This document shows positions 19,094-59,700 of a DNA stretch of 64,000 nt, in pieces (within the stretch, counting starts at the first letter, position 1; each line of letters starts with the position of its first letter). The notes beneath the pieces were generated by a model, which had not been told where the DNA came from, searched no databases, and saw only the letters and a program-made list of their open reading frames with translations. Location of the stretch: the NCBI GenBank assembly GCA_050953885.1, contig JBMNNJ010000001.1:399437-463436 (forward strand), given 5' to 3'. The DNA comes from Patescibacteria group bacterium (GTDB taxonomy: Bacteria > Patescibacteriota > Microgenomatia > 0-14-0-10-38-17). The position numbers and the translations under genes were made by a program.

Positions 19094-19174
19094 TTTTGAT
19101 ATGCCGTCCTGGCTCAATGGCAGAGCAATGGTTTTGTAAACCATAGGTTGTCGGTTCGAATCCGACGGACGGCT
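19094..19174 (+). tRNA. tRNA-Thr (anticodon UGU)
   Basis: Acceptor stem GCCGTCC/GGACGGC, anticodon arm ATGGT-TTTGTAA-ACCAT, TpsiC arm GTCGG-TTCGAAT-CCGAC. No encoded CCA. Confidence 0.85.
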
Positions 19175-19266
19175 CAAGGCGCGTCGGCACGGTAAACCGT
19201 TGATAACAATTCCCTGCCAGCCACCTTTGCCTAAATGGCTGAGTGGTAAAAACCCTACACTTTTCG

Positions 19267-19338
19267 CCAAGGTAGCTCAGTTGGTAGAGCACGTCTTTGG
19301 TAAAGACGAGGTCACGGGTTCGATCCCCGTCCTTGGCT
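19267..19338 (+). tRNA. tRNA-Thr (anticodon GGU)
   Basis: Acceptor stem GCCAAGG/CCTTGGC, anticodon arm CGTCT-TTGGTAA-AGACG, TpsiC arm ACGGG-TTCGATC-CCCGT. Confidence 0.85.
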
Positions 19339-19482
19339 CAAGAATAAAAGCGCGCGGGTGGAACCAATTCCCTCTTCCGGGCCTACAAAAAAATAAGGGA
19401 ACAACAGCAAGTCGCAGACTTAAACTCCCAACTCAAGCTTAAGGGGGTGACTTTTTGAAAAAAATAGGTTAAAATAAGAAAG

Positions 19483-19830: not shown

Positions 19831-19879
19831 AGCAAGAATTACTTTTAATTTTTTCCGCCTCAGGCGGAAAACTTTTTTT

Positions 19880-19952
19880 AGGGACGTAGCTCAATTGGCA
19901 GAGCCGCGGTCTCCAAAACCGCAGGTTAGAGGTTCAACCCCTCTCGTCCCTG
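19880..19952 (+). tRNA. tRNA-Trp (anticodon CCA)
   Basis: Acceptor stem AGGGACG/CGTCCCT, anticodon arm GCGGT-CTCCAAA-ACCGC, TpsiC arm AGAGG-TTCAACC-CCTCT. It follows rpmG, as in the classical rpmG-tRNA-Trp-secE-nusG region. Confidence 0.85.
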
Positions 19953-19979
19953 CCCTATTTTAGCCCTTTACTGAGGAAC

Positions 19980-20615
19980 TTACCTCTCCTGCTCCTGATA
20001 CAAAATCCAGTCGGCACTGTTAACCACGCCGTCTTTGTTAATATCGAATTCGGCGTTACTCGTCCCAAACACCTTCTTAAAATCATCCAAGGTATATTTT
20101 CCTCCTGTTGGAGAAATAACCGGTGATAAATTTTGCGTCGGCGTTGCTATTGGCCGAGAAATAACCGCCGTCGGAGAAACTAAGGGAAGTGTTGGCGACA
20201 CCCCCGGCGAAGGCATCTTTGCCACCGCTTCTTTGGTGGTAAAAGAGTAAGGAGCGCCGTTATCATCGTAAATCTCCTCCCCTACTCTGATACGAAAATA
20301 ATAAATCGTTTCCGGCAAAAGCGGCGAGAGACTAACATTATGATTAGTGGTTGGCGATGTTTCTGTTGCCCGCAGTAAAAAACTTCCCGGAGTTGTCCCG
20401 TATTCAACTTGTCCTACCACCGGCTCTGTTGTTTGCCAAGAAATAGCCGCGCTGTTAGCGCTAATATTGGCCACCCGCACTCCCTGCGGTTTTGCCCCTC
20501 CTGTCGCTTCACCAAAAAAAGTCCGAATTGCTCCCATTTGCCAAACAACAATTCCCACCACCACAATCGCTAAAATCCCTCCCCCTGCCATCAAAATTGT
20601 CTTTTTATTCTTCAT
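19980..20615 (-). CDS. Membrane-anchored protein with a fibronectin type III domain and a C-terminal dockerin-like Ca-binding repeat
   Basis: N-terminal TM helix. FN3-like block ISWQTTEPVVGQVEYGTTPG...IYYFRIRV. C-terminal DINKDGVVNSADWIL matches the dockerin D-x-N-x-D-G-x-V-N-x-x-D pattern. Confidence 0.5.
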   Translation of the reverse strand: MKNKKTILMAGGGILAIVVVGIVVWQMGAIRTFFGEATGGAKPQGVRVANISANSAAISWQTTEPVVGQVEYGTTPGSFLLRATETSPTTNHNVSLSPLLPETIYYFRIRVGEEIYDDNGAPYSFTTKEAVAKMPSPGVSPTLPLVSPTAVISRPIATPTQNLSPVISPTGGKYTLDDFKKVFGTSNAEFDINKDGVVNSADWILYQEQER

Positions 20616-20635
20616 TGCTCAAACAACGCTCAATT

Positions 20636-21319
20636 TTAGGCAGAGTTTTCTTCTCTTCTTTTTAAAGACCAAGCCACCCCGCCTAAGGAAAAGAAAAAAC
20701 CTATCCCTAAAAGCCCCGCCGTTAATTCAAAAACGCCTGTCTCGGGTAAAGCTGTCGAAGTAGCCTCACCGGTCGGGGTTGCTTCTCCCCCTCCCACCGG
20801 CACGGTTGCCGCTGTAATGGTGTAAGAGCCGGTGCCATTGGCACTACAAACAATCACATCTATTTGCCCTTCGTTGATATTGGAATCGGCCGTTGAACCG
20901 CTTTGGCAACTAAAAGTAAGCCTGGCTGTGCCTGCCTTTTTGGCCTTAAAATTAATCGTGGCCAGCGTTCCGGTACCGGTTTTGGGGGCATTGCTATCCG
21001 CCACGCCATAAATTTTTACTTCTCCCAAAACACTGGTATCACTCGTCGTGGTAGGGAAAAATCGCCCTTCTTCAACACTCGTTACCTCCAAAAGGCTGCT
21101 GTCAAAAGCCACCACCGCATCAGCACTGCTAATACTTTTCCCGCCGGTATTAATTTCCACCGCCACCGCTAATGTTTCTCCTGTTTCTATAGTAGTTGCC
21201 GCCGGGGAAAAAGAAAAATGCGGTGACACAGTCTGCGCCTCCACAGCACTCCCCCCTAACAACAAACCAAAACTAGCGACTAAAACTAAAAAAGAAAAGA
21301 AAAACTTTCGCTTACTCAT
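20636..21319 (-). CDS. Secreted cohesin-like domain protein with a C-terminal LPXTG sortase-anchoring signal
   Basis: Signal peptide. The cohesin-like pattern is LAVAVEINTGGKSISSADAVVAFDSSLLEVTSVEEGRFF ... GTGTLATINFKAKKAGTARLTF. The C-terminus is LPETG + hydrophobic stretch + KRRE tail. Confidence 0.5.
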   Translation of the reverse strand: MSKRKFFFSFLVLVASFGLLLGGSAVEAQTVSPHFSFSPAATTIETGETLAVAVEINTGGKSISSADAVVAFDSSLLEVTSVEEGRFFPTTTSDTSVLGEVKIYGVADSNAPKTGTGTLATINFKAKKAGTARLTFSCQSGSTADSNINEGQIDVIVCSANGTGSYTITAATVPVGGGEATPTGEATSTALPETGVFELTAGLLGIGFFFSLGGVAWSLKRREENSA

Positions 21320-21456
21320 TTCTTAATCATCTTATACTAATAAAAGTCCTAATGTCAAGAAGAAAGTTTTCCTAAAATTAGGAATGATAAATAAAGGTTA
21401 TTATCTTTGGGCAACAATTACAAGAGGAAAAACAATCAATTAAAAGAGGATCATGG

Positions 21457-45276: not shown

Positions 45277-45708
45277 ATGGCCGAAGAAAAAAAAAGGAGC
45301 TTGGCACCAGTTTTGGCGATCGCCATTGTTTTAATTTTAGTGGGGGTGGCGATGTTCTTATCCCAACAGGAAATTATTTTTCGGGGCCAAGCCTCTCCTT
45401 CCACCACCTATTCTTTGGCCAATTCCTACCTCTTTGGCTCTCCTCTTTCCGCCGCCGCTAATGGTCAGGAAAAAATTAAAGTCAGCGTTTTTCTCCTTAA
45501 CCAACAAGGATTAGGCGTGGATAAAAAACAAATTACCCTAAAAACCCAGCCAAGTGGGGGGTTAAACATCGAAGCCAGCCAACCCACCACCGATAAATCC
45601 GGCCAAGCTATTTTCTATCTTTCTTCCTCCACCCCGGGCAGTTTTGAAATAAGCGCCCAGGTAGAGGGACAGGAGTTCCCCCAAAAAATAAGCGTTCACT
45701 TCCGATAA
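45277..45708 (+). CDS. Membrane-anchored bacterial Ig-like (Big_1/invasin-like) domain protein
   Basis: TM anchor, then a Big_1-like pattern (KVSVFLLNQQGLGVDKKQITLKT...TDKSGQAIFYLSSSTPGSFEISAQV). An A9 homopolymer at 45287-45295 lies inside codons 4-7. Confidence 0.5.
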   Translation: MAEEKKRSLAPVLAIAIVLILVGVAMFLSQQEIIFRGQASPSTTYSLANSYLFGSPLSAAANGQEKIKVSVFLLNQQGLGVDKKQITLKTQPSGGLNIEASQPTTDKSGQAIFYLSSSTPGSFEISAQVEGQEFPQKISVHFR

Positions 45709-46720: not shown

Positions 46721-47203
46721 ATGCCCCAAACCCTGCTCTCCTCTTTCCGGCTTTATCTTAAAGCCCAAGGGAAAAAGGAAAACACCATCAGGAATTATCT
46801 TCAGGACATTGATCACTTTTTCTCTTGGCTTTCCTCCCAAATTAAAGATTCTTCACTGCAAGCGCTTCTTAACGACCCTAACAAAATAGCTCAAAACATA
46901 ACGGTTAAAAATTTAACTGTCTATCAGCGATTTTTGGAAAAAAATGAAGTTTCCCCTACCACTATCAACCGCCGCCTTTCCTCTCTTCGCCAATTGACAA
47001 AGTTTTTCCTTTCTCAAGGTTGGTTAAAAGAAGACCCAATAAAAAAATTAGCCAATATCTCCATTGAAAAAGAAACCGATAAAACTTCGCAAATTCTGGA
47101 AAAGTTTGCCAAAGCGCTTGAAGAAGAAGGGAAAAGCAAAACCACCATTAGAAATTATCTTTCTGACGTGAAGGGGTTTTTGGAATGGCACGAAAAAGAT
47201 TAA
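46721..47203 (+). CDS. Small protein made of tandem phage-integrase-N-terminal-like (SAM-like/core-binding) modules, with no catalytic domain
   Basis: Three ~35-aa modules of the pattern FxxYLxxxGxSxxTIxxYLxxxxxFxxW: SFRLYLKAQGKKENTIRNYLQDIDHFFSWL, VYQRFLEKNEVSPTTINRRLSSLRQLTKFF and LEKFAKALEEEGKSKTTIRNYLSDVKGFLEW. Confidence 0.5.
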   Translation: MPQTLLSSFRLYLKAQGKKENTIRNYLQDIDHFFSWLSSQIKDSSLQALLNDPNKIAQNITVKNLTVYQRFLEKNEVSPTTINRRLSSLRQLTKFFLSQGWLKEDPIKKLANISIEKETDKTSQILEKFAKALEEEGKSKTTIRNYLSDVKGFLEWHEKD

Positions 47204-47215
47204 AAAGTTAAAAAA

Positions 47216-47776
47216 ATGACCAACAGAATTATTTTGCCTCACGGCAATTATCGTCAGCTTAAATCGTTCCAAACTACAACAATTATTTACGATTTCACGA
47301 TGGCTTTTTGTAATCAATACCGGTCCCTCCTGACTTACAAGAACTACGAGCAAATGATCGGTGGTGCCAGATCGGGTAAGCAAAATATCGCCGAAGGCAG
47401 TCAGGTTTCTGGCACTTCTAAAAAAACAGAGATAAAACTTACCAGCGTTGCCCGTGGGTCACTTGAAGAATTGCTTCAAGATTGCCTTGATTTTCTTCGC
47501 CAAAACAATCTTGTTTTGTGGGATAAAAACGATCCCCGGGCTATTACCATCCGCAAGATTGCTTATAAGCCTGATCGGTCTTATGAGTCCTACAAGTCCT
47601 ATCTTAAAGACCCGGAAAGCGCCGTCAACTGCCTAATTTGCTTAATTCATCAGGCTAATTTTCTTCTTGACCGTCAGCTTGAAGCTTTAGAAAAAGATTT
47701 TTTAGAAAATGGCGGCTTCACTGAAAGGCTTTATCGGGAAAGAAGCGAAGCAAGAAAAAAGCAAAAATATGACTAA
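47216..47776 (+). CDS. Four-helix-bundle protein (23S rRNA intervening-sequence protein / Avd-like family), long form
   Basis: Family motifs NIAEGS...S and ARGSLEEL in the expected spacing. The stop overlaps the start of the giant gene (ATGACTAA). Confidence 0.55.
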   Translation: MTNRIILPHGNYRQLKSFQTTTIIYDFTMAFCNQYRSLLTYKNYEQMIGGARSGKQNIAEGSQVSGTSKKTEIKLTSVARGSLEELLQDCLDFLRQNNLVLWDKNDPRAITIRKIAYKPDRSYESYKSYLKDPESAVNCLICLIHQANFLLDRQLEALEKDFLENGGFTERLYRERSEARKKQKYD

Positions 47777-50700
47777 TAGGACTAATAGGACCAATAATAG
47801 GACCAACTCAGCGGGCTTTTTAGAACCATTGCAAATTCAGGCTTACCTGAAAAGGCTTAAAAAGGAAGGGGCTTCTCCGGCCACTCTTAAACGCAAGGAG
47901 GCGGCCTTAAAAAAATTCCAAAGCTGGCAGGGAAAAGAATACGGACCAAAGTATCCCTTGCCAAAAGGCGCCCCTAAGCCCAAAAAGATAATCTCTAAGA
48001 AGGGAATTTTCCCCAAGGCTTTTCCTCCTTTTTTAAGATATTTTTCTTTCCTAATCGGTTTGGTGCTTTTGGCTAGTTTAGGCTGGGGAGTTTATAGCCA
48101 ATTTTTTGCCCAGCCGAAAGAAACCCCCTCCATGGCCTTCCCTACTAACCCGCCGCTCTTAATTTCTTTTCAGGGTCAGCTTACCGATGATGACGGCACT
48201 CCGATTAATGCCACTATTCCTGCCATTTTCCGCCTTTATAATGTGGACGAGGGTGGTACCGCTCTTTGGGAAGAGCAAAAAAATGTCTCCACCGACCAGG
48301 ACGGCATTTTCAATACTTTCTTGGGTGACACCGCCACGCTGGATCCGGCCATTTTTCGCGACAATATGAATCTTTGGCTGGCAATTGAAATCGACAACGA
48401 CGGGGAAATGGAACCCCGTCAGCAAATTGCCACCGTGGGCTATGCTTTCAATTCCCGCTATCTTCAAGGTTATGAGGCCACCACAGCAGCTACCGCTAAC
48501 ACCATACCGGTTATTAATGCCGATGGCGATTTAATTTTAGCCTCCTCCTCTCCCGCCATTGAAGCCACCTCCGGCACCTTTGGCCTTAAAGGCGAAGCGA
48601 TTACTATTCAATCAACCGGCGGCACGGGCGGCGGGGATATTTTAATTCAGCCCGATGCCGATACCCAAGGACAGGTAATTATCTACTCGGCAACTACCGC
48701 CGACAATTCTTTTACCGTTCAAAATAGCAATATCACCACTGGCTCGCTAATTTATGGCGAGGCCGGTACTAGCGCTAGCGGTTATAACCTGCTAAAACTT
48801 ACCTCCGGAAGCCTTTTAACCGATAAGTTTGTGGTTGACTATGCCGGCAACACCGACATCGCCGGCAACTTAACCGTTGACAGTTCCGGATTTTTTGGCA
48901 ATAGTGTCGGCATCGGCACCACCAGCCCCGGGGCAACCTTGGATGTTAACGGCAACTTACGAATTGGCACCCTGACAACAGGCTCCACCGATACCGTCTT
49001 AACCCACTCCAACAATATTGTCCAGCAAAGAACAATTGATCCCCGGGTTTGGGGGGAAACCTTGGTAGACGGCAGCGGTAGTGCCGGCTATGTGGCCTAC
49101 TGGCAGGATGCCAATACCCTGACGGGGGAGCAATACCTCGCCACCTCAAGAGGTGGCACCGGCGATGACACCTCCTCTACCACTGGTGTCCCCTACATTT
49201 CTTCCGGCAACTGGCAATATGAATCAAGTTTAAATGTGAGCCGGGGCGGCACTGGGTTTTCTTCTTTAGCAGCTGGCTCCCTAATCTACGGTTCCGGCTC
49301 CTCCCCAATGAACGCTTTAGCAATTGGCACTACTAACTATGTTTTAACCTCCAATGGTTCTGCTCCTAACTGGTCACTAATTAGCCAGGCAAATATCAGT
49401 CCTGATTCTCTAGACTTTGACCAATTCCAGGATACCCTAGATCTGGATACTGACTTAGTCTTAAATCAAGCCGCTTACACCTGGACGCAAAACTTTACCG
49501 GAGCAACTACTACCGGCTTAACTTACAACGCTAATGCTTTAACTTCAGGAAAAGGGGTATATGTTTCTTCTACTTCAACTGGTTTAACAGGAAACTTGGC
49601 AGAAATAAGTCTGTCGGGAAACAATGCCGCCAACACCGGTAATGTTTTAAGACTGGCCCAAACTGGCGCCTTATCAGCGGCAATTCCTTTAATGGTGACC
49701 AATCTTGGCGCCGGCGCTTCCTTCAGGGTTAACGATGAAACGGGCGACAATGACAGCACCCCCTTTATTATTGATGCTTCCGGCGCTGTGGGGGTGGGAA
49801 CAGCCATGCCAAACGCCTCGGCAATTCTTGATTTAACTTCAACCGCCAAGGGCTTTCTTGCTCCAAGAATGACTACCAGCCAAAGAGATGCTATTGTTAA
49901 CCCCGCCGCCGGCCTTTTAATCTATAACACCACCACCAATCAATATAACATGTATAACGGCACGGGCTGGACTCTTATTGGCGGCGGAGATGTTTCTTGG
50001 AGTAGCTTAATTGACCCGACAGAAAATCTCTTGCTAAACCATGGGGCCTACACCACCACCTTTACCTGGGGAGCCTCAACCGGAGCTAATAACCTCTTTA
50101 CCCTTACCGATACGGCCAACAATACCGGCACGGGCTACCTTTTAAACCTTAATACCGCCACGGGGTCAAGTCTTAAACCTTTAAGGGTGGCTTCGGCCGG
50201 AGTTGAGGCTTTGGCCATCGATGCCGCCGGCAATGTGGGGATCGGGACAACGAGCCCGGGAGAAAAGTTGGATGTAGTTGGAGCAATCCGTTCCAGTGGA
50301 GTCGATGTATCATCTTTAAATCCAGGAACAAGCACCACCGGAGGTTTATATTTAGGTGCACATATGGGACACCTTATACTTGACTTAAGAAATAATGATT
50401 CCAATGACTCAATTGCTTTCCGATATTCAGCGGCAAACAACACAGTAGTAGATACTATTGGTCTAGTTATGAAAGGCGGAACTGGCAACGTCGGCATCGG
50501 CACCACCAGCCCCGGGGCAACCTTGGATGTTAACGGCAACTTACGAATTGGCACCCTGACAACAGGCTCCACCGATACCGTCTTAACCCACTCCAACAAT
50601 ATTGTCCAGCAAAGAACAATTGATCCCCGGGTTTGGGGGGAAACCTTGGTAGACGGCAGCGGTAGTGCCGGCTATGTGGCCTACTGGCAGGATGCCAATA

Positions 50701-53700
50701 CCCTGACGGGGGAGCAATACCTCGCCACCTCAAGAGGTGGCACCGGCGATGACACCTCCTCTACCACTGGTGTCCCCTACATTTCTTCCGGCAACTGGCA
50801 ATATGAATCAAGTTTAAATGTGAGCCGGGGCGGCACTGGGTTTTCTTCTTTAGCAGCTGGCTCCCTAATCTACGGTTCCGGCTCCTCCCCAATGAACGCT
50901 TTAGCAATTGGCACTACTAACTATGTTTTAACCTCCAATGGTTCTGCTCCTAACTGGTCACTAATTAGCCAGGCAAATATCAGTCCTGATTCTCTAGACT
51001 TTGACCAATTCCAGGATACCCTAGATCTGGATACTGACTTAGTCTTAAATCAAGCCGCTTACACCTGGACGCAAAACTTTACCGGAGCAACTACTACCGG
51101 CTTAACTTACAACGCTAATGCTTTAACTTCAGGAAAAGGGGTATATGTTTCTTCTACTTCAACTGGTTTAACAGGAAACTTGGCAGAAATAAGTCTGTCG
51201 GGAAACAATGCCGCCAACACCGGTAATGTTTTAAGACTGGCCCAAACTGGCGCCTTATCAGCGGCAATTCCTTTAATGGTGACCAATCTTGGCGCCGGCG
51301 CTTCCTTCAGGGTTAACGATGAAACGGGCGACAATGACAGCACCCCCTTTATTATTGATGCTTCCGGCGCTGTGGGGGTGGGAACAGCCATGCCAAACGC
51401 CTCGGCAATTCTTGATTTAACTTCAACCGCCAAGGGCTTTCTTGCTCCAAGAATGACTACCAGCCAAAGAGATGCTATTGTTAACCCCGCCGCCGGCCTT
51501 TTAATCTATAACACCACCACCAATCAATATAACATGTATAACGGCACGGGCTGGACTCTTATTGGCGGCGGAGATGTTTCTTGGAGTAGCTTAATTGACC
51601 CGACAGAAAATCTCTTGCTAAACCATGGGGCCTACACCACCACCTTTACCTGGGGAGCCTCAACCGGAGCTAATAACCTCTTTACCCTTACCGATACGGC
51701 CAACAATACCGGCACGGGCTACCTTTTAAACCTTAATACCGCCACGGGGTCAAGTCTTAAACCTTTAAGGGTGGCTTCGGCCGGAGTTGAGGCTTTGGCC
51801 ATCGATGCCGCCGGCAATGTGGGGATCGGGACAACGAGCCCGGGAGAAAAGTTGGATGTAGTTGGAGCAATCCGTTCCAGTGGAGTCGATGTATCATCTT
51901 TAAATCCAGGAACAAGCACCACCGGAGGTTTATATTTAGGTGCACATATGGGACACCTTATACTTGACTTAAGAAATAATGATTCCAATGACTCAATTGC
52001 TTTCCGATATTCAGCGGCAAACAACACAGTAGTAGATACTATTGGTCTAGTTATGAAAGGCGGAACTGGCAACGTCGGCATCGGCACCACCAGCCCCGGG
52101 GCAACCTTGGATGTTAACGGCAACTTACGAATTGGCACCCTGACAACAGGCTCCACCGATACCGTCTTAACCCACTCCAACAATATTGTCCAGCAAAGAA
52201 CAATTGATCCCCGGGTTTGGGGGGAAACCTTGGTAGACGGCAGCGGTAGTGCCGGCTATGTGGCCTACTGGCAGGATGCCAATACCCTGACGGGGGAGCA
52301 ATACCTCGCCACCTCAAGAGGTGGCACCGGCGATGACACCTCCTCTACCACTGGTGTCCCCTACATTTCTTCCGGCAACTGGCAATATGAATCAAGTTTA
52401 AATGTGAGCCGGGGCGGCACTGGGTTTTCTTCTTTAGCAGCTGGCTCCCTAATCTACGGTTCCGGCTCCTCCCCAATGAACGCTTTAGCAATTGGCACTA
52501 CTAACTATGTTTTAACCTCCAATGGTTCTGCTCCTAACTGGTCACTAATTAGCCAGGCAAATATCAGTCCTGATTCTCTAGACTTTGACCAATTCCAGGA
52601 TACCCTAGATCTGGATACTGACTTAGTCTTAAATCAAGCCGCTTACACCTGGACGCAAAACTTTACCGGAGCAACTACTACCGGCTTAACTTACAACGCT
52701 AATGCTTTAACTTCAGGAAAAGGGGTATATGTTTCTTCTACTTCAACTGGTTTAACAGGAAACTTGGCAGAAATAAGTCTGTCGGGAAACAATGCCGCCA
52801 ACACCGGTAATGTTTTAAGACTGGCCCAAACTGGCGCCTTATCAGCGGCAATTCCTTTAATGGTGACCAATCTTGGCGCCGGCGCTTCCTTCAGGGTTAA
52901 CGATGAAACGGGCGACAATGACAGCACCCCCTTTATTATTGATGCTTCCGGCGCTGTGGGGGTGGGAACAGCCATGCCAAACGCCTCGGCAATTCTTGAT
53001 TTAACTTCAACCGCCAAGGGCTTTCTTGCTCCAAGAATGACTACCAGCCAAAGAGATGCTATTGTTAACCCCGCCGCCGGCCTTTTAATCTATAACACCA
53101 CCACCAATCAATATAACATGTATAACGGCACGGGCTGGACTCTTATTGGCGGCGGAGATGTTTCTTGGAGTAGCTTAATTGACCCGACAGAAAATCTCTT
53201 GCTAAACCATGGGGCCTACACCACCACCTTTACCTGGGGAGCCTCAACCGGAGCTAATAACCTCTTTACCCTTACCGATACGGCCAACAATACCGGCACG
53301 GGCTACCTTTTAAACCTTAATACCGCCACGGGGTCAAGTCTTAAACCTTTAAGGGTGGCTTCGGCCGGAGTTGAGGCTTTGGCCATCGATGCCGCCGGCA
53401 ATGTGGGGATCGGGACAACGAGCCCGGGAGAAAAGTTGGATGTAGTTGGAGCAATCCGTTCCAGTGGAGTCGATGTATCATCTTTAAATCCAGGAACAAG
53501 CACCACCGGAGGTTTATATTTAGGTGCACATATGGGACACCTTATACTTGACTTAAGAAATAATGATTCCAATGACTCAATTGCTTTCCGATATTCAGCG
53601 GCAAACAACACAGTAGTAGATACTATTGGTCTAGTTATGAAAGGCGGAACTGGCAACGTCGGCATCGGCACCACCAGCCCCGGGGCAACCTTGGATGTTA

Positions 53701-56700
53701 ACGGCAACTTACGAATTGGCACCCTGACAACAGGCTCCACCGATACCGTCTTAACCCACTCCAACAATATTGTCCAGCAAAGAACAATTGATCCCCGGGT
53801 TTGGGGGGAAACCTTGGTAGACGGCAGCGGTAGTGCCGGCTATGTGGCCTACTGGCAGGATGCCAATACCCTGACGGGGGAGCAATACCTCGCCACCTCA
53901 AGAGGTGGCACCGGCGATGACACCTCCTCTACCACTGGTGTCCCCTACATTTCTTCCGGCAACTGGCAATATGAATCAAGTTTAAATGTGAGCCGGGGCG
54001 GCACTGGGTTTTCTTCTTTAGCAGCTGGCTCCCTAATCTACGGTTCCGGCTCCTCCCCAATGAACGCTTTAGCAATTGGCACTACTAACTATGTTTTAAC
54101 CTCCAATGGTTCTGCTCCTAACTGGTCACTAATTAGCCAGGCAAATATCAGTCCTGATTCTCTAGACTTTGACCAATTCCAGGATACCCTAGATCTGGAT
54201 ACTGACTTAGTCTTAAATCAAGCCGCTTACACCTGGACGCAAAACTTTACCGGAGCAACTACTACCGGCTTAACTTACAACGCTAATGCTTTAACTTCAG
54301 GAAAAGGGGTATATGTTTCTTCTACTTCAACTGGTTTAACAGGAAACTTGGCAGAAATAAGTCTGTCGGGAAACAATGCCGCCAACACCGGTAATGTTTT
54401 AAGACTGGCCCAAACTGGCGCCTTATCAGCGGCAATTCCTTTAATGGTGACCAATCTTGGCGCCGGCGCTTCCTTCAGGGTTAACGATGAAACGGGCGAC
54501 AATGACAGCACCCCCTTTATTATTGATGCTTCCGGCGCTGTGGGGGTGGGAACAGCCATGCCAAACGCCTCGGCAATTCTTGATTTAACTTCAACCGCCA
54601 AGGGCTTTCTTGCTCCAAGAATGACTACCAGCCAAAGAGATGCTATTGTTAACCCCGCCGCCGGCCTTTTAATCTATAACACCACCACCAATCAATATAA
54701 CATGTATAACGGCACGGGCTGGACTCTTATTGGCGGCGGAGATGTTTCTTGGAGTAGCTTAATTGACCCGACAGAAAATCTCTTGCTAAACCATGGGGCC
54801 TACACCACCACCTTTACCTGGGGAGCCTCAACCGGAGCTAATAACCTCTTTACCCTTACCGATACGGCCAACAATACCGGCACGGGCTACCTTTTAAACC
54901 TTAATACCGCCACGGGGTCAAGTCTTAAACCTTTAAGGGTGGCTTCGGCCGGAGTTGAGGCTTTGGCCATCGATGCCGCCGGCAATGTGGGGATCGGGAC
55001 AACGAGCCCGGGAGAAAAGTTGGATGTAGTTGGAGCAATCCGTTCCAGTGGAGTCGATGTATCATCTTTAAATCCAGGAACAAGCACCACCGGAGGTTTA
55101 TATTTAGGTGCACATATGGGACACCTTATACTTGACTTAAGAAATAATGATTCCAATGACTCAATTGCTTTCCGATATTCAGCGGCAAACAACACAGTAG
55201 TAGATACTATTGGTCTAGTTATGAAAGGCGGAACTGGCAACGTCGGCATCGGCACCACCAGCCCCGGGGCAACCTTGGATGTTAACGGCAACTTACGAAT
55301 TGGCACCCTGACAACAGGCTCCACCGATACCGTCTTAACCCACTCCAACAATATTGTCCAGCAAAGAACAATTGATCCCCGGGTTTGGGGGGAAACCTTG
55401 GTAGACGGCAGCGGTAGTGCCGGCTATGTGGCCTACTGGCAGGATGCCAATACCCTGACGGGGGAGCAATACCTCGCCACCTCAAGAGGTGGCACCGGCG
55501 ATGACACCTCCTCTACCACTGGTGTCCCCTACATTTCTTCCGGCAACTGGCAATATGAATCAAGTTTAAATGTGAGCCGGGGCGGCACTGGGTTTTCTTC
55601 TTTAGCAGCTGGCTCCCTAATCTACGGTTCCGGCTCCTCCCCAATGAACGCTTTAGCAATTGGCACTACTAACTATGTTTTAACCTCCAATGGTTCTGCT
55701 CCTAACTGGTCACTAATTAGCCAGGCAAATATCAGTCCTGATTCTCTAGACTTTGACCAATTCCAGGATACCCTAGATCTGGATACTGACTTAGTCTTAA
55801 ATCAAGCCGCTTACACCTGGACGCAAAACTTTACCGGAGCAACTACTACCGGCTTAACTTACAACGCTAATGCTTTAACTTCAGGAAAAGGGGTATATGT
55901 TTCTTCTACTTCAACTGGTTTAACAGGAAACTTGGCAGAAATAAGTCTGTCGGGAAACAATGCCGCCAACACCGGTAATGTTTTAAGACTGGCCCAAACT
56001 GGCGCCTTATCAGCGGCAATTCCTTTAATGGTGACCAATCTTGGCGCCGGCGCTTCCTTCAGGGTTAACGATGAAACGGGCGACAATGACAGCACCCCCT
56101 TTATTATTGATGCTTCCGGCGCTGTGGGGGTGGGAACAGCCATGCCAAACGCCTCGGCAATTCTTGATTTAACTTCAACCGCCAAGGGCTTTCTTGCTCC
56201 AAGAATGACTACCAGCCAAAGAGATGCTATTGTTAACCCCGCCGCCGGCCTTTTAATCTATAACACCACCACCAATCAATATAACATGTATAACGGCACG
56301 GGCTGGACTCTTATTGGCGGCGGAGATGTTTCTTGGAGTAGCTTAATTGACCCGACAGAAAATCTCTTGCTAAACCATGGGGCCTACACCACCACCTTTA
56401 CCTGGGGAGCCTCAACCGGAGCTAATAACCTCTTTACCCTTACCGATACGGCCAACAATACCGGCACGGGCTACCTTTTAAACCTTAATACCGCCACGGG
56501 GTCAAGTCTTAAACCTTTAAGGGTGGCTTCGGCCGGAGTTGAGGCTTTGGCCATCGATGCCGCCGGCAATGTGGGAATTGGGACGACGAGTCCGGGGGCA
56601 AAGCTACATGTAAATGCTGGTGCAGCACAATTGACAATGGAAAGAGATGAAACCCACATTAACACATGGGATTTCAGAATCACTCAGGAGGCGGGCATCT

Positions 56701-59700
56701 CTGCAAACTCCCTATACCTGAGAGCGTCAGAAAATACAGCCGACTTTGGAATAAGGGCAGCTAATTCTGGGAACGTCCAGTTCATTTTGAAGGGCCCAAC
56801 AGGCAACGTCGGCATCGGGACGACGGCGCCGGGGGCGAAGCTTGATGTTAACGGAACGGGTAGGTTTGCCACTTCCGTGTCTTCGCCTCTTTTTCAAGGT
56901 GATACCGGGGCGGTTACCTTTGGCAATGCTTCCTATGCCACCACCATTGCCGGTTCAGGATTAACCATCTCTCCTACTGCCTGGACAGCCACTCCTACCA
57001 TATCAGGGCTTATTACCGCTACTTTAGGATTAACCGCCAATGGAGCCTTAACCGCCAACAGCACCTTCACTTTAGGAGACGGCGCTGATGCCGGTTCGGT
57101 TAATACCTCAAGTTGGGATATCTCCACCACTGGCGTCGCCTCGGGATTTACCGGCCTTACTTCCTCCGGCACGATCACCTTCTCTTCTCTGGCCGCCAAC
57201 CGACTGGTGACCACCACCACAGGAGGAGAACTAACCACCAGCGCCGAGGGGACTGTCGGCCAGCCCTTACTTTCCGGAGGGACATCCTCCCCCAACTGGG
57301 GGACTCTTGGTCTGGTTTATGGCGGTACCAATGCCGATCTTTCCGGGGTGGCCCAAGGAGGGCTAATTTACAAGGAAACTTCCGCCTTAGCCGGCACCGG
57401 GGCCTTAACGGGAATTCTTCAGGGAAATAACGCCAGCGCCCCCACCGCCATCACCGGCACCGCCAATTATCTGCCCAAATGGTCCTCAACCGCCCCTTAC
57501 CTCACCACCGCTTCCCAAATTTTCGACAGCGGCGCTAATGTCGGCATTGGCAATAGCAATCCTCAAGCCCTGCTTCATGTGGGCGCCGGCGGCACGCCCA
57601 ATTATGCTTCAAGCGGCGATGTTTATATCCAAAACGATCTCGAAGTGGACGGCACCATTTACGGCGCGCTGGATATTACCGACGCCACTTTTGACTTTTT
57701 GGAAGTTAAGCGGGCGGCCACTTTCTCCGCCCAAATCGCCTCGGATATTCCCATTACCGTTAAAAACACCGGCGGCAATGAGGTGGCGCGGTTCACCAAC
57801 GAGGGCAAGCTAAGACTTGGTTCTGCCGGCGCGCCCACCGACACTTTAGATATTGATGGCGACGCTGATATTTCCGGCAACTTGGATGTGGGCAATGGCC
57901 TTGATGTTTTAGGCGCCAACTTCACCGTCGGCGGCGCTAACTTTACCGTTAGCCAAGCCGGCACGGTGACCGGCGGCACCTACAACGGCCAAACTATTTC
58001 CTCCACTGCCAGCTTTACCGGCACTCTTAGCGTCGCTTCAACCTTCAACGCTAATAGCAATGTGGGCTTGGGAAACGAAGCCACCGACACCATCAACGCC
58101 GCCGGGCAATTTGTCTCCGGCCTTATCCCCCAAACAAACAGTTATAACCTTGGCTCCCCCACTAACCACTGGGGCGCTTTGTACGTTGATTCCATTTACG
58201 GCGGTCAGGTGGGCGAATTTGACTTTCTTAAGGCCCGGGGCGCCACCCTCTCGGCCGAAATCCCCACCGACAAAACCTTGGTTTTGGAAGGCCTTGCTTC
58301 CGGCCATACCGCCAATTTAATTGAAGCCAACGCCAACGGCGCCACCGCTCTCACCCTCTCCCCGGCCGGCAATTTAACCTTAGGAGGAACGATAACTTTA
58401 CCCAACGGTAACACCTTAACCGGCGTGGCTTCTTATATTCAATTTAACAATGGCATAAGCGTTGGCGGGGGAACCACCTATCGGCTCACCTCCACTGGCG
58501 ACGCATATCTTAATAATCTCTACACCGGCGGAACGCAAAGGCTTTCTTCAACCGGCGCCCTTGCCAACATTACCGACTACAGCCAATCCTCCGGCAATTT
58601 CGCCATTTCGGGAACTGGCACTTTCTCTACCGCCACCGGCAATATCTCCCTAAATGGAGCCACCACCGTAGCCGACGGCAAATCTTTCACCGCCAACGGG
58701 CCGGTGACCTTGGGCGACGGGGGCGATGCGGTGGCCATTAACAGCAACATTTGGGATATTACCTCGGCCGGCGTCGCTTCCGGCTTAACCCAATTAACCG
58801 TTGACAACCTCCAGCTTGACGGCAACACTCTTTCTTCAACCACGGACAACATTACTCTTGACGCCGCCGCTTACTTGGTGATTGCCGACCAAATTGCCTC
58901 AAGCTTAATTCCTTCCGCCACCAACACTTATGATTTGGGCTCCCCGGAGAACTACTGGGACGATGCTTACATCAACACTTTAACCGCTAATTCGCTAAAT
59001 TTTGATTTTATCGCCGCCCGCGGCGCCACTTTTTCGGCCGAAATCCCCACCGACAAAACCTTGGTTCTTAATGCCGCTACCGGCCAAACCGCCAATCTTT
59101 TGGAAATCAATTCCGCCCCCGGCGCCAGCGGCGACTTAATGGTGGTCACCGGCGGCGGCAATGTCGGCATTGGCAACAGCAATCCGGGAACATATAAATT
59201 AGATGTGGCGGGCACGGGAAGATTTAATTCCACCGCTAATCCGGGGTTAACGGTTGGCAACGGCGCTATTGGCTATTTAAAAATTGGCGGCTCAACTATT
59301 TATGATAACAACAGCGACTTAACTTTAGACTCCGATACTGCCTTGGTGATTTTAGCCGATGATTTGCAAATTAACGGCAATGATATTTATGATTCCGGCG
59401 CAAACCAGAGAATCAATTTGGGCGCCACCACCACTTTATACAACACCACCACCATCCTTTCGGGCACCACCGCCTTAACCGCCTCTTCCTTGGCAACCTT
59501 TACCACCGCCTCCTCTTTGGCAATGCCCGCCACCACCTCTTTAACCTTAGGCGGTTCAGCAACCATCTACGGCGGCACGACGGCTTCAGGAACACTAACT
59601 CTTCAGTCAACTTCAAACGCCACCAAAGGCAATATCCTAATTAATCCTTCTGGCGGCAATGTCGGCATCGGGACGACGGGGCCGGGGGCGAAATTATCTA

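What the first reader, a model, noticed from the sequence alone, without database searches (positions are those of the whole stretch)
19980..21319. Adjacent cohesin-like/LPXTG and FN3/dockerin-like genes: a possible minimal cohesin-dockerin surface pairing module
The upstream gene has a signal peptide, a cohesin-like beta-sandwich sequence pattern and a canonical LPETG + hydrophobic + KRRE sorting signal. The downstream gene has a TM anchor, an FN3 domain and a C-terminal DINKDGVVNSADWIL dockerin-type Ca-binding repeat. Together they look like a two-component, sortase-anchored protein-protein docking system. Such systems are not expected in small-genome episymbiotic bacteria, and no sortase gene lies in this window.
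Basis: partly seen in the sequence, partly recalled or inferred. Interest (0 to 1): 0.6.

Follow-up and report, generated by a model that had tools for sequence, protein, structure and literature searches.

The report
Wall-anchored cohesin with half-dockerin partner
Two adjacent surface-protein genes in a tiny uncultured Shapirobacteria (CPR) bacterium encode a true cohesin fixed to the cell wall and a membrane-anchored protein ending in a one-loop "half" dockerin; the pair is kept together in about 67 related species and is most likely a plug-and-socket couple of the cell envelope, but binding has not been shown.

Summary
Gene A (20636-21319, minus) has a signal peptide, a genuine cohesin domain (Pfam 47 bits against a cut-off of 24; the AF2 model's top 50 PDB matches are all cohesins) and LPETG, a hydrophobic stretch and KRRE. 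Gene B (19980-20615, minus) has an N-terminal membrane anchor, an FN3 domain, a disordered Pro/Thr linker and a C-terminal helix-loop-helix.

That C-terminus is only part of a type I dockerin: the end of helix 1, the linker and the second Ca-binding F-hand. It scores below Pfam's cut-off (14.8 against 22.9). Two-loop orthologues pass.

The organism is Candidatus Shapirobacteria (Microgenomates). In 67 of 68 informative species-level loci, a cohesin-LPXTG gene lies directly upstream of the FN3-dockerin gene, usually overlapping it by 4 nt.

Most relatives carry a five-gene operon with three cohesins and three distinct dockerin classes. In the window's clade the first three genes are missing. 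In the window's genome the usual operon site is empty and the last two genes sit together at a new site. This is the best, though indirect, evidence that A and B are cognate partners.

No sortase lies in the about 74 kb examined, but a published survey reports sortase as near-ubiquitous in Microgenomates. Binding and function remain inferred. I rate it a new variant of a known kind, of moderate interest.

The parts
21329..21358 (-). Promoter-like site (TTGACA, 18-nt spacer, TAAGAT; 10 of 12 matches) ending 10 nt upstream of the gene A start codon
   Evidence: Consensus scan only. Three sites were found against 2.4 expected in shuffles, so this is weak evidence.
20636..21319 (-). Gene A: secreted, wall-sorted cohesin protein (227 aa). 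It corresponds to P4, the fourth gene of the five-gene operon seen in relatives.
   Evidence: ORF. The same protein is encoded on 12 metagenome contigs. Homologues are named 'LPXTG cell wall anchor domain-containing protein [Candidatus Shapirobacteria]'.
21236..21319 (-). Signal peptide of A (residues 1-28; probable cleavage AVEA|Q)
   Evidence: Read from the sequence. AF2 gives a helix at residues 3-22 and a low-confidence junction at 23-27. No signal-peptide predictor was available.
20810..21229 (-). Cohesin domain of A (residues 31-170)
   Evidence: Pfam Cohesin 47.1 bits against a cut-off of 24.1. AF2 ten-residue block means are 81-97 over residues 31-170, mostly above 90. The Foldseek PDB top 50 are all cohesins; the best is 6kgf_C, E 1.8e-10, TM (normalised to target) 0.77. 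Mean pairwise identity within the clade is 64.5%.
20750..20809 (-). Short Thr/Gly/Pro-rich stalk of A (residues 171-190)
   Evidence: pLDDT below 50. Only 24% mean identity within the clade.
20735..20749 (-). LPETG sortase-type sorting motif (residues 191-195)
   Evidence: tta ccc gag aca ggc. P192 and G195 are invariant and L191 nearly so. Across loci: LPQTG 25, LPETG 19, LPKTG 12, LPRTG 10.
20639..20734 (-). Hydrophobic segment plus KRREENSA tail of the sorting signal (residues 196-227)
   Evidence: Read from the sequence. AF2 helix at residues 197-226. Gram_pos_anchor 17.4 bits, below the cut-off of 20.
19980..20615 (-). Gene B: membrane-anchored FN3 and half-dockerin protein (211 aa). It corresponds to P5, the fifth gene of the five-gene operon. 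It starts 20 nt after the stop codon of A.
   Evidence: ORF. 201 homologues, nearly all from Shapirobacteria or Patescibacteria.
20538..20600 (-). N-terminal transmembrane signal-anchor of B (about residues 6-26), followed by the conserved juxtamembrane motif IRTFFGEATGG
   Evidence: 20-residue uninterrupted hydrophobic stretch after MKNKK. AF2 helix at residues 2-39. Relatives P0190, P0217 and P0230 have 70-140 residue extensions before this helix, so it is an anchor and not a cleaved signal peptide. This last step is an inference.
20232..20492 (-). FN3 domain of B (residues 42-128)
   Evidence: Pur_ac_phosph_N 38.9 bits and fn3 25.4 bits. pLDDT about 90-96. Foldseek PDB hits are all FN3 domains. 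Invariant EYGTTP and YYFRIR motifs. 79.5% identity within the clade.
20100..20231 (-). Disordered Pro/Thr/Ser-rich linker of B (residues 129-172)
   Evidence: pLDDT below 50 over residues 133-172. 18.6% identity within the clade.
19989..20099 (-). Half-dockerin unit of B (residues 173-209): a helix (YTLDDFKKVF), a linker (GTSNAEF), a Ca loop (D191-D202) and a helix (WILYQEQ)
   Evidence: Dockerin_1 14.8 bits, below the cut-off. The best PDB sequence matches of the last 41 aa are type I dockerins: 2y3n_B E 1.7e-4 and 3ul4_B E 2.5e-4. The 2y3n_B alignment covers the end of helix 1, the linker and the second F-hand. AF2 gives helices at 176-183 and 200-209 with pLDDT about 66-73. D191, N199 and D202 are invariant. 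73.5% identity within the clade.

Best explanation
Genes A and B encode a cognate, non-cellulosomal cohesin-dockerin pair of the cell envelope of a Candidatus Shapirobacteria bacterium.

Proposed mechanism:
- A is exported. A housekeeping sortase encoded elsewhere cleaves it at LPET|G and links it covalently to peptidoglycan, leaving a single type-I-like cohesin on a short stalk.
- B stays in the membrane through its N-terminal signal-anchor. It carries a highly conserved FN3 domain next to the membrane.
- B sends a roughly 44-residue flexible Pro/Thr linker outward. At its tip is a one-loop dockerin unit that binds Ca2+ and plugs into the cohesin of A.
- The result is a non-covalent membrane-to-wall protein bridge or surface scaffold with no enzyme attached.

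The pair is the reduced core of an ancestral five-gene operon, which I number P1 to P5:
- P1: a Cys-rich protein ending in a dockerin.
- P2: a cohesin-plus-dockerin adaptor.
- P3: a membrane-anchored cohesin.
- P4: the LPXTG cohesin (gene A here).
- P5: the FN3-dockerin protein (gene B here).
In most Shapirobacteria this operon probably also displays large variable Cys-rich proteins.

Shown here: domain identities, the conserved sorting motif, conserved and translationally coupled adjacency, retention of A and B together where P1-P3 are absent, and purifying selection on the cohesin and the dockerin unit.

Inferred: sortase processing, the membrane topology of B, A-B binding, Ca dependence and the biological role.
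For: Domain identities:
- Cohesin by sequence and by fold.
- FN3 by sequence and by fold.
- The C-terminal unit is most similar to type I dockerins. It is orthologous to two-loop C-termini that pass Pfam's Dockerin_1 cut-off, for example L008 6001-6672 at 28.5 bits.

Conserved gene pairing:
- Cohesin-LPXTG followed by FN3-dockerin in 67 of 68 informative species-level loci. The gap is most often -4 nt, which implies translational coupling.
- The pair is intact in at least four different genomic contexts.

Evidence for pairing specificity:
- The full operon has three dockerin classes that barely cross-score. Median self scores are 81-103 bits against 10-22 bits across classes.
- It also has three cohesins. 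P3 is a cohesin by hhalign (96%) and by PDB hits. Of 26 P2 proteins, 8 hit Cohesin and 22 hit Dockerin_1.
- In the window's clade P1-P3 are absent from the window, L082 and L012-L017.
- In the window's genome the site that holds the operon in the relative L007/L008, between RseP and S21-YqeY-YbeY-DnaX-RecR-CysS, is a 282-bp gap. A and B sit together elsewhere.

Selection within that clade (mean pairwise identity): cohesin 64.5%, LPXTG 87%, FN3 79.5%, dockerin unit 73.5%, linkers 19-24%.

Precedents:
[quoted passage not shown] B retains a helix ending in ...DFKKVFG plus the second F-hand.
- An adjacent single cohesin and single dockerin gene pair was shown to form a heterodimer (PMC13487519).
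Against: - No binding data and no complex model.
- The window's dockerin unit is below Pfam's cut-off and has one Ca loop. The canonical dockerin fold needs two F-hands. The AF2 confidence of the unit is only about 70.
- The same helix-loop-helix unit occurs as 3-16 tandem copies in unrelated proteins, where cohesin binding is not implied.
- No sortase was found in the 64-kb window, in 10 kb further on, or in the +/-10 kb flanks of 70 related loci.
- I examined only about 74 kb of this genome. Other cohesins, dockerins or copies of P1-P3 could exist elsewhere.
- Co-retention of A and B could reflect a shared function without direct contact.
Confidence: 0.6

Rival explanations
1. A and B are co-expressed envelope proteins that do not bind each other. 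The C-terminus of B is a single EF-hand-like Ca-binding element. It might stabilise the protein, sense Ca2+, or mediate homodimerisation, since lone EF-hands usually pair. The cohesin of A would bind some other ligand.
For: - Dockerin_1 is below its cut-off with only one loop, and EF-hand_1 also hits weakly.
- The same unit forms tandem arrays in unrelated proteins that score on both Dockerin_1 and EF-hand models.
- The unit's AF2 confidence is moderate.
- Non-cellulosomal cohesins with unknown ligands exist, for example the A. fulgidus cohesin 2xdh among the fold hits.
Against: - Two-loop orthologues are bona fide Pfam dockerins.
- The best PDB sequence matches of the unit are dockerins, with EF-hand proteins far weaker.
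- The cohesin gene is strictly adjacent and translationally coupled across about 67 species, and the two genes are retained together when the other cohesin and dockerin genes are lost.
Confidence: 0.2
2. A is a general wall-anchored docking site. It would bind dockerins of several proteins encoded elsewhere in the genome, such as large adhesins. B is only one client, or binds a different cohesin.
For: - In relatives the operon encodes further dockerin proteins, P1 and P2.
- Only about 74 kb of this genome was seen.
- The ClcC study reports additional candidate partners even in a 'minimal' system.
Against: - The three dockerin classes are sharply distinct.
- No other cohesin or dockerin of class P1, P2 or P5 lies in the window, L082 or the clade loci.
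- The visible part of the neighbouring giant ORF has no dockerin motif.
- The one short metagenomic locus with 79% tblastn identity to the window part of that giant ORF (L084) encodes a separate 242-aa protein ending in a Peptidase_S74 chaperone domain, not a dockerin.
Confidence: 0.15
3. The adjacency is fortuitous, or the ORFs are not real genes.
For: None beyond the weak sub-threshold motif scores.
Against: - Gene A's exact product is on 12 contigs and gene B has many near-identical homologues.
- Domain-wise purifying selection.
- Conserved adjacency in 67 of 68 loci.
Confidence: 0.02

Closest known systems
Ruminococcus flavefaciens ScaE (anchoring scaffoldin: one cohesin plus an LPXTG sortase signal)
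   Same: A single cohesin module followed by a short linker and an LPXTG cell-wall sorting signal. It is a wall-fixed socket for a dockerin-bearing partner. ScaE's cohesin is among the fold hits (2zf9, E 3.8e-7). That ScaE is sortase-anchored is from my own knowledge (Rincon et al. 2005), not checked here.
   Different: ScaE is a type III cohesin that binds X-dockerin modules of ScaB and CttA in a cellulosome of a plant-fibre degrader. Gene A is closest to type I cohesins (6kgf, 4ums, 1g1k). Its presumed partner has no X module and no enzyme, and the organism is a CPR bacterium.
Cellulosilyticum lentocellum ClcC/ClcD minimal cohesin-dockerin pair (PMC13487519)
   Same: One cohesin gene and one dockerin gene lie adjacent in one operon. 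They were shown to form a heterodimer, and the dockerin is predicted to have a single binding interface.
   Different: ClcC carries CBM3 and X2 modules and has no wall anchor. ClcD is a GH5 cellulase with a full two-repeat dockerin. Here there is no carbohydrate-active module, the cohesin carries LPXTG, the dockerin has one loop and its carrier is membrane-anchored.
Clostridium thermocellum OlpA/OlpC type I cohesin anchors (3ul4, 4dh2)
   Same: Single type I cohesins on the cell surface that bind dockerin proteins directly. They are structural hits. The 3ul4_B dockerin is the second-best sequence match to the C-terminus of B.
   Different: They are anchored by SLH modules, not sortase, and their clients are cellulosomal enzymes with two-repeat dockerins.
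Non-cellulosomal cohesin and dockerin modules (Peer et al. 2009; Archaeoglobus fulgidus cohesin 2xdh; Clostridium perfringens NagJ/NagH system 2ozn, 2jh2)
   Same: Cohesin-dockerin used as a general protein-protein connector outside cellulose degradation. These are structural or sequence hits to A and to the P3 cohesin. The Peer et al. paper appears as a reference in PMC10066038.
   Different: Those systems join enzymes or toxins, or are orphans. None is described as a lineage-wide operon in CPR bacteria or with a one-loop dockerin. I could not read Peer et al..
Engineered N-terminally truncated type I dockerin (Karpol et al. 2009, as cited in PMC4728124)
   Same: [quoted passage not shown] B naturally has just this layout...DFKKVFG, a linker and the second F-hand.
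   Different: That is a laboratory construct from C. thermocellum. The equivalence of B's K180/K181 to Lys18/Arg19 is my inference from the alignment, not a test.
Essential dockerin-domain protein SEML1_0315 of the Saccharibacterium Southlakia epibionticum (PMC10633639)
   Same: A dockerin-domain envelope protein in a cultivated CPR epibiont, found essential by transposon mutagenesis, with a neighbouring theme of FN3 surface proteins.
   Different: A different CPR class. The paper does not contain the word cohesin (0 occurrences). The architecture was not compared here.

Membership tests
Cohesin (Pfam PF00963) | Sequence match above the curated threshold | tested here: met
   47.1 bits against 24.1, E 3.5e-12, residues 42-156 matching model positions 9-131 of 139.
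Cohesin (Pfam PF00963) | Nine-stranded beta-sandwich (jelly-roll) cohesin fold | tested here: met
   The AF2 model is all-beta, with ten-residue pLDDT block means of 81-97 over residues 31-170, mostly above 90. The Foldseek PDB top 50 are all cohesin modules; the best is E 1.8e-10 with TM (normalised to target) 0.77-0.79.
Cohesin (Pfam PF00963) | Binds a dockerin | not testable with these tools
   No multimer prediction or experiment was available. The only support is genomic.
Dockerin type I (Pfam PF00404) | Sequence match above the curated threshold | tested here: not met
   Window protein: 14.8 bits against 22.9, E 0.034. The two-loop orthologue L008 6001-6672 scores 28.5 bits and passes.
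Dockerin type I (Pfam PF00404) | Two duplicated segments of about 22 residues, each an F-hand (Ca loop plus helix) | tested here: not met
   Only one Dx[DN]xDG loop is present (D191-D202). The position of the first loop is taken by the helix YTLDDFKKVF. Of the 76 locus entries tallied, which include duplicate loci L001-L011, 38 show one motif, 34 two and 4 none.
Dockerin type I (Pfam PF00404) | Canonical Ca-binding loop DxNxDGxxNxxD followed by a helix | tested here: met
   DINKDGVVNSAD followed by WILYQEQ. D191, N199 and D202 are invariant, and D195 and G196 nearly so. The best PDB sequence matches are type I dockerins.
Dockerin type I (Pfam PF00404) | Ca-dependent binding to a cognate cohesin | not testable with these tools
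   Requires biochemistry or complex modelling.
Sortase substrate (LPXTG cell-wall sorting signal) | LPXTG motif, then a hydrophobic segment, then a positively charged tail at the C-terminus, with an N-terminal signal peptide | tested here: met
   LPETG, 23 hydrophobic residues, then KRREENSA, with an N-terminal signal-like sequence. The motif is conserved in 75 of 76 locus entries, duplicates included.
Sortase substrate (LPXTG cell-wall sorting signal) | Match to curated anchor models (PF00746, TIGR01167) | tested here: not met
   PF00746: 17.4 bits against 20. TIGR01167: 11.3 bits against 15.9. NCBI nevertheless names the 80%-identical homologue an LPXTG anchor protein.
Sortase substrate (LPXTG cell-wall sorting signal) | A sortase encoded in the same genome | not testable with these tools
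   None in the window, in 10 kb further on (L082), or in the flanks of 70 related loci. The literature reports a sortase family near-ubiquitous in Microgenomates (PMC6744442) and a sortase in the closed Microgenomates genome Ch65 (PMC7143001).
Cellulosome | A scaffoldin with multiple cohesins that integrates dockerin-bearing carbohydrate-active enzymes | tested here: not met
   There is one cohesin per protein. Neither A nor B has a glycoside hydrolase or CBM domain. P1, P2 and P3 of relatives hit only Dockerin_1 and Cohesin, apart from single CARDB and Dumpy_DPY hits in one P2 member each.
Fibronectin type III domain | Sequence match above threshold and an FN3 beta-sandwich fold | tested here: met
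   fn3 25.4 bits against 25, and Pur_ac_phosph_N 38.9 bits against 30. AF2 pLDDT is about 90-96. Foldseek hits are all FN3 domains.

The most novel reading that the evidence does not exclude
Shapirobacteria may possess a lineage-wide, enzyme-free cohesin-dockerin envelope scaffold. It would be built from three orthogonal cohesin-dockerin pairs encoded in one five-gene operon: a membrane cohesin, an adaptor, Cys-rich cargo, a wall cohesin and an FN3-dockerin. The window's clade has pared this down to a single pair that uses a naturally minimised one-loop dockerin. That pair would form a Ca2+-dependent strut between the membrane and the sortase-decorated wall, as a structural or host-attachment element of an ultrasmall episymbiont.
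Probability: 0.3. Interest if true: 0.65.

Novelty: new variant of a known kind. Interest (0 to 1): 0.45.

Why it matters
CPR (Patescibacteria) bacteria make up a large share of bacterial diversity, yet how they build their envelope and attach to hosts is poorly understood. Much of their surface proteome is unannotated.

If correct, this finding gives:
- A conserved, experimentally tractable protein-protein connector in an uncultured class.
- A natural one-loop dockerin that matches the minimal dockerin defined by truncation experiments. This is useful for understanding the minimum requirement for cohesin recognition and for designing small orthogonal affinity tags.
- A set of three apparently orthogonal cohesin-dockerin pairs within one operon in relatives. 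All nine combinations could be tested directly for specificity.

It also corrects the assumption that cohesin-dockerin systems belong only to large-genome fibre degraders. In the searched paper library, no paper that mentions dockerin together with 'candidate phyla radiation' or Patescibacteria describes the system. A looser six-term search, ranked by number of terms matched, showed no dockerin-containing paper among its 25 listed.

Tried and rejected
1. A word-indexed homologue search with the 41-aa dockerin unit returned nothing, because the query was too short for the index. I replaced it with the exhaustive representative search.
2. The sortase hunt found nothing. I also extended 10 kb beyond the window's left end. 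The whole genome could not be scanned with these tools.
3. I tried to reach the C-terminus of the neighbouring giant ORF, to see whether it carries a dockerin.
   - An exact 42-mer scan of metagenome contigs found nothing.
   - The protein-based scan gave only one short locus with 79% tblastn identity (L084), holding short tail-fibre-like ORFs, and many distant tail-fibre-like hits.
   - The downstream 242-aa L084 protein ends in a Peptidase_S74 chaperone domain, not a dockerin.
4. A regex survey of the motif that follows the N-terminal helix (R-x(1-4)-[GSA]-x-A) was too permissive to mean anything: 130 of 424 ORFs matched. I left it as an observation.
5. I considered a mirror-tree or covariation test between cohesin and dockerin and did not run it. 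The dockerin unit has only about 25-35 alignable residues, there are about 65 pairs, and shared phylogeny would confound the result.
6. Tandem Repeats Finder reported nothing for the giant ORF because its period limit is 500 nt. A direct comparison found the 1584-nt array.
7. Peer et al. 2009 (PMC3035643) is not held in the library.
8. A cellulosome interpretation is rejected: there are no glycoside hydrolase or CBM domains and no multi-cohesin scaffoldin.
9. Reading B's N-terminus as a cleaved signal peptide is judged less likely. The hydrophobic stretch is 20 residues long, the small-residue motif lies about 12 residues beyond it, and some relatives have long extensions before the helix.
Full report
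**What is there**

The interval 19980-21319 holds two minus-strand ORFs separated by 20 nt.

Gene A (20636-21319, 227 aa) has these parts:
- A signal-like N-terminus, MSKRKFFFSFLVLVASFGLLLGGSAVEA|Q.
- A domain that matches Pfam Cohesin well above threshold: 47.1 bits against 24.1, E 3.5e-12.
- A short Thr/Gly/Pro stalk.
- LPETG, 23 hydrophobic residues and KRREENSA.

An AlphaFold2 model built on 14 homologues is all-beta, with pLDDT mostly above 90 over residues 31-170. Its 50 best Foldseek matches in the PDB are all cohesin modules. Type I cohesins are closest (6kgf_C, E 1.8e-10, TM normalised to target 0.77). The matches also include the LPXTG-anchored R. flavefaciens ScaE cohesin and the non-cellulosomal Archaeoglobus cohesin.

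Gene B (19980-20615, 211 aa) has these parts:
- MKNKK followed by a 20-residue hydrophobic helix.
- An FN3 domain: Pur_ac_phosph_N 38.9 bits and fn3 25.4 bits, both above cut-off. Its pLDDT is about 90-96 and it gives only FN3 fold hits.
- A disordered Pro/Thr linker, residues 133-172.
- A C-terminal helix-loop-helix (helices 176-183 and 200-209, pLDDT about 70) that contains DINKDGVVNSAD.

**The dockerin is a half module**

Pfam Dockerin_1 scores only 14.8 bits, below the cut-off of 22.9, and covers one repeat.

The last 41 residues nevertheless find type I dockerins as their best PDB sequence matches (2y3n_B E 1.7e-4, 3ul4_B E 2.5e-4). EF-hand proteins score far lower. The best alignment covers the end of helix 1, the linker and the second F-hand of the dockerin.

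In the family alignment the more distant orthologues carry two Cys-flanked loops: C..TDYNKDGVVNSLDY..CLK ... C..VDYNKDGVVNSLDRIKCLQ. These pass Pfam's threshold, for example L008 6001-6672 at 28.5 bits (precomputed hits).

So the window protein carries a derived dockerin whose first Ca loop has been replaced by a plain helix (YTLDDFKKVF). This layout resembles an experimental result. [quoted passage not shown] B keeps ...DFKKVFG. Treating B's K180/K181 as equivalent to those residues is my inference.

An exhaustive search with the 41-aa unit found 135 proteins. In many of them the same unit occurs in 3-16 tandem copies and scores on both Dockerin_1 and EF-hand models. The unit alone therefore does not prove cohesin binding.

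**Organism and conservation**

Source names of the homologues, and record titles of 70 loci from species-representative genomes, place the family almost wholly in Candidatus Shapirobacteria, Microgenomates or Patescibacteria.

I built an HMM from the gene A family and searched all loci. It found a cohesin-LPXTG gene immediately upstream of the FN3 gene, on the same strand, in 67 of 68 informative loci. The exceptions are a contig edge and two weak non-family hits.

The gap between the two genes is most often -4 nt, which implies translational coupling. The sorting motif is always LPxTG-like: LPQTG 25, LPETG 19, LPKTG 12, LPRTG 10. P192 and G195 are invariant.

The pair is intact in at least four different neighbourhoods:
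- After rplA in the window.
- After mreB in L009.
- Between RseP and rpsU in L008 and L011.

**The larger operon and why it points to A-B pairing**

Outside the window's clade, three more genes precede the pair. I number the five genes P1 to P5:
- P1: 350-1640 aa, Cys-rich, ending in a dockerin. L008 P1 scores 23.5 bits on Dockerin_1.
- P2: an N-terminal cohesin-like domain and a C-terminal dockerin. Of 26 P2 proteins, 22 hit Dockerin_1 and 8 hit Cohesin.
- P3: an N-terminal membrane helix and a cohesin. hhalign gives 96% probability against the gene A family, and the PDB hits are C. perfringens NagJ and CipA cohesins.
- P4: gene A here.
- P5: gene B here.

P3 is present in 53 of 59 loci that have enough upstream sequence. 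Five of the six exceptions belong to the window's clade. The sixth, L032, is a gene-calling artefact of a locus known to have P3.

The three dockerin classes barely cross-score. Median self scores are 81-103 bits against 10-22 bits across classes. This suggests three specificities for three cohesins.

In the window's genome, the site that holds the operon in the relative L007/L008, between RseP and S21-YqeY-YbeY-DnaX-RecR-CysS, is an empty 282-bp gap (L082). No P1, P2 or P3 homologue occurs in the window, in L082 or in the clade's loci. A and B sit together at a new site.

Within this reduced clade, mean pairwise identity by region is:
- Cohesin domain: 64.5%.
- LPXTG motif: 87%.
- FN3 domain: 79.5%.
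- Dockerin unit: 73.5%.
- Linkers: 19-24%.

Loss of P1-P3 as a block, together with retention of P4-P5 as an adjacent pair under purifying selection, is the strongest though indirect argument that the P5 dockerin docks on the P4 cohesin.

**Topology and mechanism (inferred)**

Relatives of B carry 70-140 residue extensions before the hydrophobic helix (P0190, P0217, P0230). A long pre-helix segment fits a signal-anchor, not a cleaved signal peptide. B is therefore most likely a bitopic membrane protein with its N-terminus inside the cell.

A would be cleaved at LPET|G and attached to peptidoglycan by a sortase. I found no sortase in about 74 kb of this genome or in the flanks of related loci. 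However, a sortase family is reported as near-ubiquitous in Microgenomates (PMC6744442), and the closed Microgenomates genome Ch65 encodes one (PMC7143001).

The proposed complex is therefore a non-covalent, presumably Ca2+-dependent bridge from the membrane, through the FN3 domain and a flexible linker, to a wall-fixed cohesin. Its biological role is unknown. It could be envelope architecture or a base for host attachment. In relatives the second circuit (P1-P3) probably displays variable Cys-rich proteins.

**Comparison with known systems**

The closest known systems are:
- R. flavefaciens ScaE, a single LPXTG cohesin.
- The C. lentocellum ClcC/ClcD pair, a single adjacent cohesin and dockerin that was shown to bind (PMC13487519).
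- C. thermocellum OlpA and OlpC.
- Non-cellulosomal cohesin-dockerin modules (Peer et al. 2009, seen as a reference).

A dockerin-domain protein is essential in a cultivated Saccharibacterium (PMC10633639).

The present system differs in four ways: there is no enzyme or CBM, the partner is a membrane-anchored FN3 protein, the dockerin has one loop, and the system is a conserved operon in a CPR class. It is not a cellulosome.

In the library, no paper that mentions dockerin together with 'candidate phyla radiation' or Patescibacteria describes this system. A looser six-term search, ranked by number of terms matched, showed no dockerin-containing paper among its 25 listed. I file it as a new variant of a known kind.

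**Limits**

- No complex model or binding data could be produced.
- The whole genome could not be scanned for sortase or for other cohesin and dockerin genes.
- The promoter-like site upstream of A is only a consensus match.

**Verdict**

- Observation: confirmed.
- Interpretation: partly supported. The pairing is likely.
- Confidence that A and B are a cognate pair: about 0.6.
- Interest: 0.45.

Noticed in passing
window 47706-63998 (+), runs off the right end: A giant open reading frame of more than 5,400 codons. It has tail-fibre-like GNVGIGTTSPGxKLDVxG motifs and a DUF2793 hit. It contains 4.84 perfectly identical tandem copies of a 1584-nt unit (48906-56575). G+C is 0.49-0.54 against about 0.40-0.43 in the rest of the window. 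The perfect identity could be real or an assembly artefact. One JGI contig of the same organism appears, by coordinate arithmetic, to end inside this array.
   Followed up: partly
window about 62232-63092 (+), with a nested ORF at 62368-62811 (+) in another frame: The giant ORF contains an intein (Pfam Intein_splicing, E 5e-20, with a large insertion). Inside that insertion, in a different reading frame, lies a complete 23S rRNA-intervening-sequence protein gene (PF05635, E 4e-41; also bAvd-like). The host frame stays open across it. This looks like a nested or overprinted gene in the slot where a homing endonuclease would be expected.
   Followed up: partly
window 46721-47203 (+) and 47216-47776 (+): Just upstream of the giant ORF lie a 160-aa ORF that is only a phage-integrase N-terminal SAM-like domain (E 1.7e-17) and a weak 23S_rRNA_IVP-like ORF (26 bits, below cut-off). 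The N-terminus of the giant ORF also has a faint SAM-like match.
   Followed up: no
L008 1538-6672; L011 163-6585; 53 of 59 loci among L018-L079: Most Shapirobacteria carry a five-gene operon with three cohesins (P2 N-terminus, membrane-anchored P3, LPXTG P4) and three sharply distinct dockerin classes. P1: GDANCDG..DYSIWR. P2: QDG..DFSYVK...DLDGNC.VNS.D...EKQGQLY. P5: Cys-flanked DYNKDGVVNSLD. P1 proteins are large (350-1640 aa), variable and 5-12% cysteine, with no other Pfam domain.
   Followed up: partly
L082 15266-15548 (window genome, about 14 kb left of the window start) compared with L008 1-6720: In the window's genome, the site that holds the operon in L007/L008, between RseP (M50+PDZ) and rpsU-yqeY-ybeY-dnaX-recR-cysS, is an empty 282-bp gap. 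The cohesin/FN3-dockerin pair lies instead between rplA and tRNA-Trp/rpmG.
   Followed up: partly
window B residues 27-41; window 45277-45708; L008 and L011 operon proteins: A recurring short motif follows the N-terminal hydrophobic helix of many secreted or anchored proteins of these organisms: IRTFFGEATGG, VRTYIGGASAD, QETRRSAAE, ELRKSAYE, TEVRKGAYAG, and IIFRGQAS in the Big_1 protein at 45277-45708. It may be a lineage-specific processing or sorting signal. My regex test was too permissive to decide.
   Followed up: partly
P0139, P0140, P0141, P0143, P0148, P0153 (not in the window): A family of 300-400 aa proteins from other, apparently G+C-rich organisms. Most start with MQI..., and most carry 3-4 tandem copies of the same helix-WGT-x-D-x2-YDLNGDGTVN-x2-DLL-x-FL unit, and several end in RYPDGLG[LI][DN]V. 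They score on Dockerin_1 and EF-hand models. Function unknown.
   Followed up: no
L018-L079, P3 proteins (alignment A3): The membrane helix of the P3 cohesin proteins carries a nearly invariant Glu-Ser pair (..LVI.ES[VI]..) inside the hydrophobic segment. This suggests a helix-helix contact within the membrane.
   Followed up: no
window 19103-19175, 19266-19339, 19879-19955 (+): tRNA-Thr(TGT), tRNA-Thr(GGT) and tRNA-Trp(CCA). The tRNA-Trp lies 25 nt from the stop codon of gene B, on the opposite strand, next to a bidirectional terminator-like hairpin at 19851-19871.
   Followed up: no
record titles of L016, L017, L019-L023 and others: Many of the genome records that carry this Shapirobacteria-type cassette are titled 'uncultured Gammaproteobacteria bacterium' (TPA assemblies), and one is titled 'Candidatus Methanoperedens'. 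These are probably placeholder or mis-binned labels, not true hosts.
   Followed up: no
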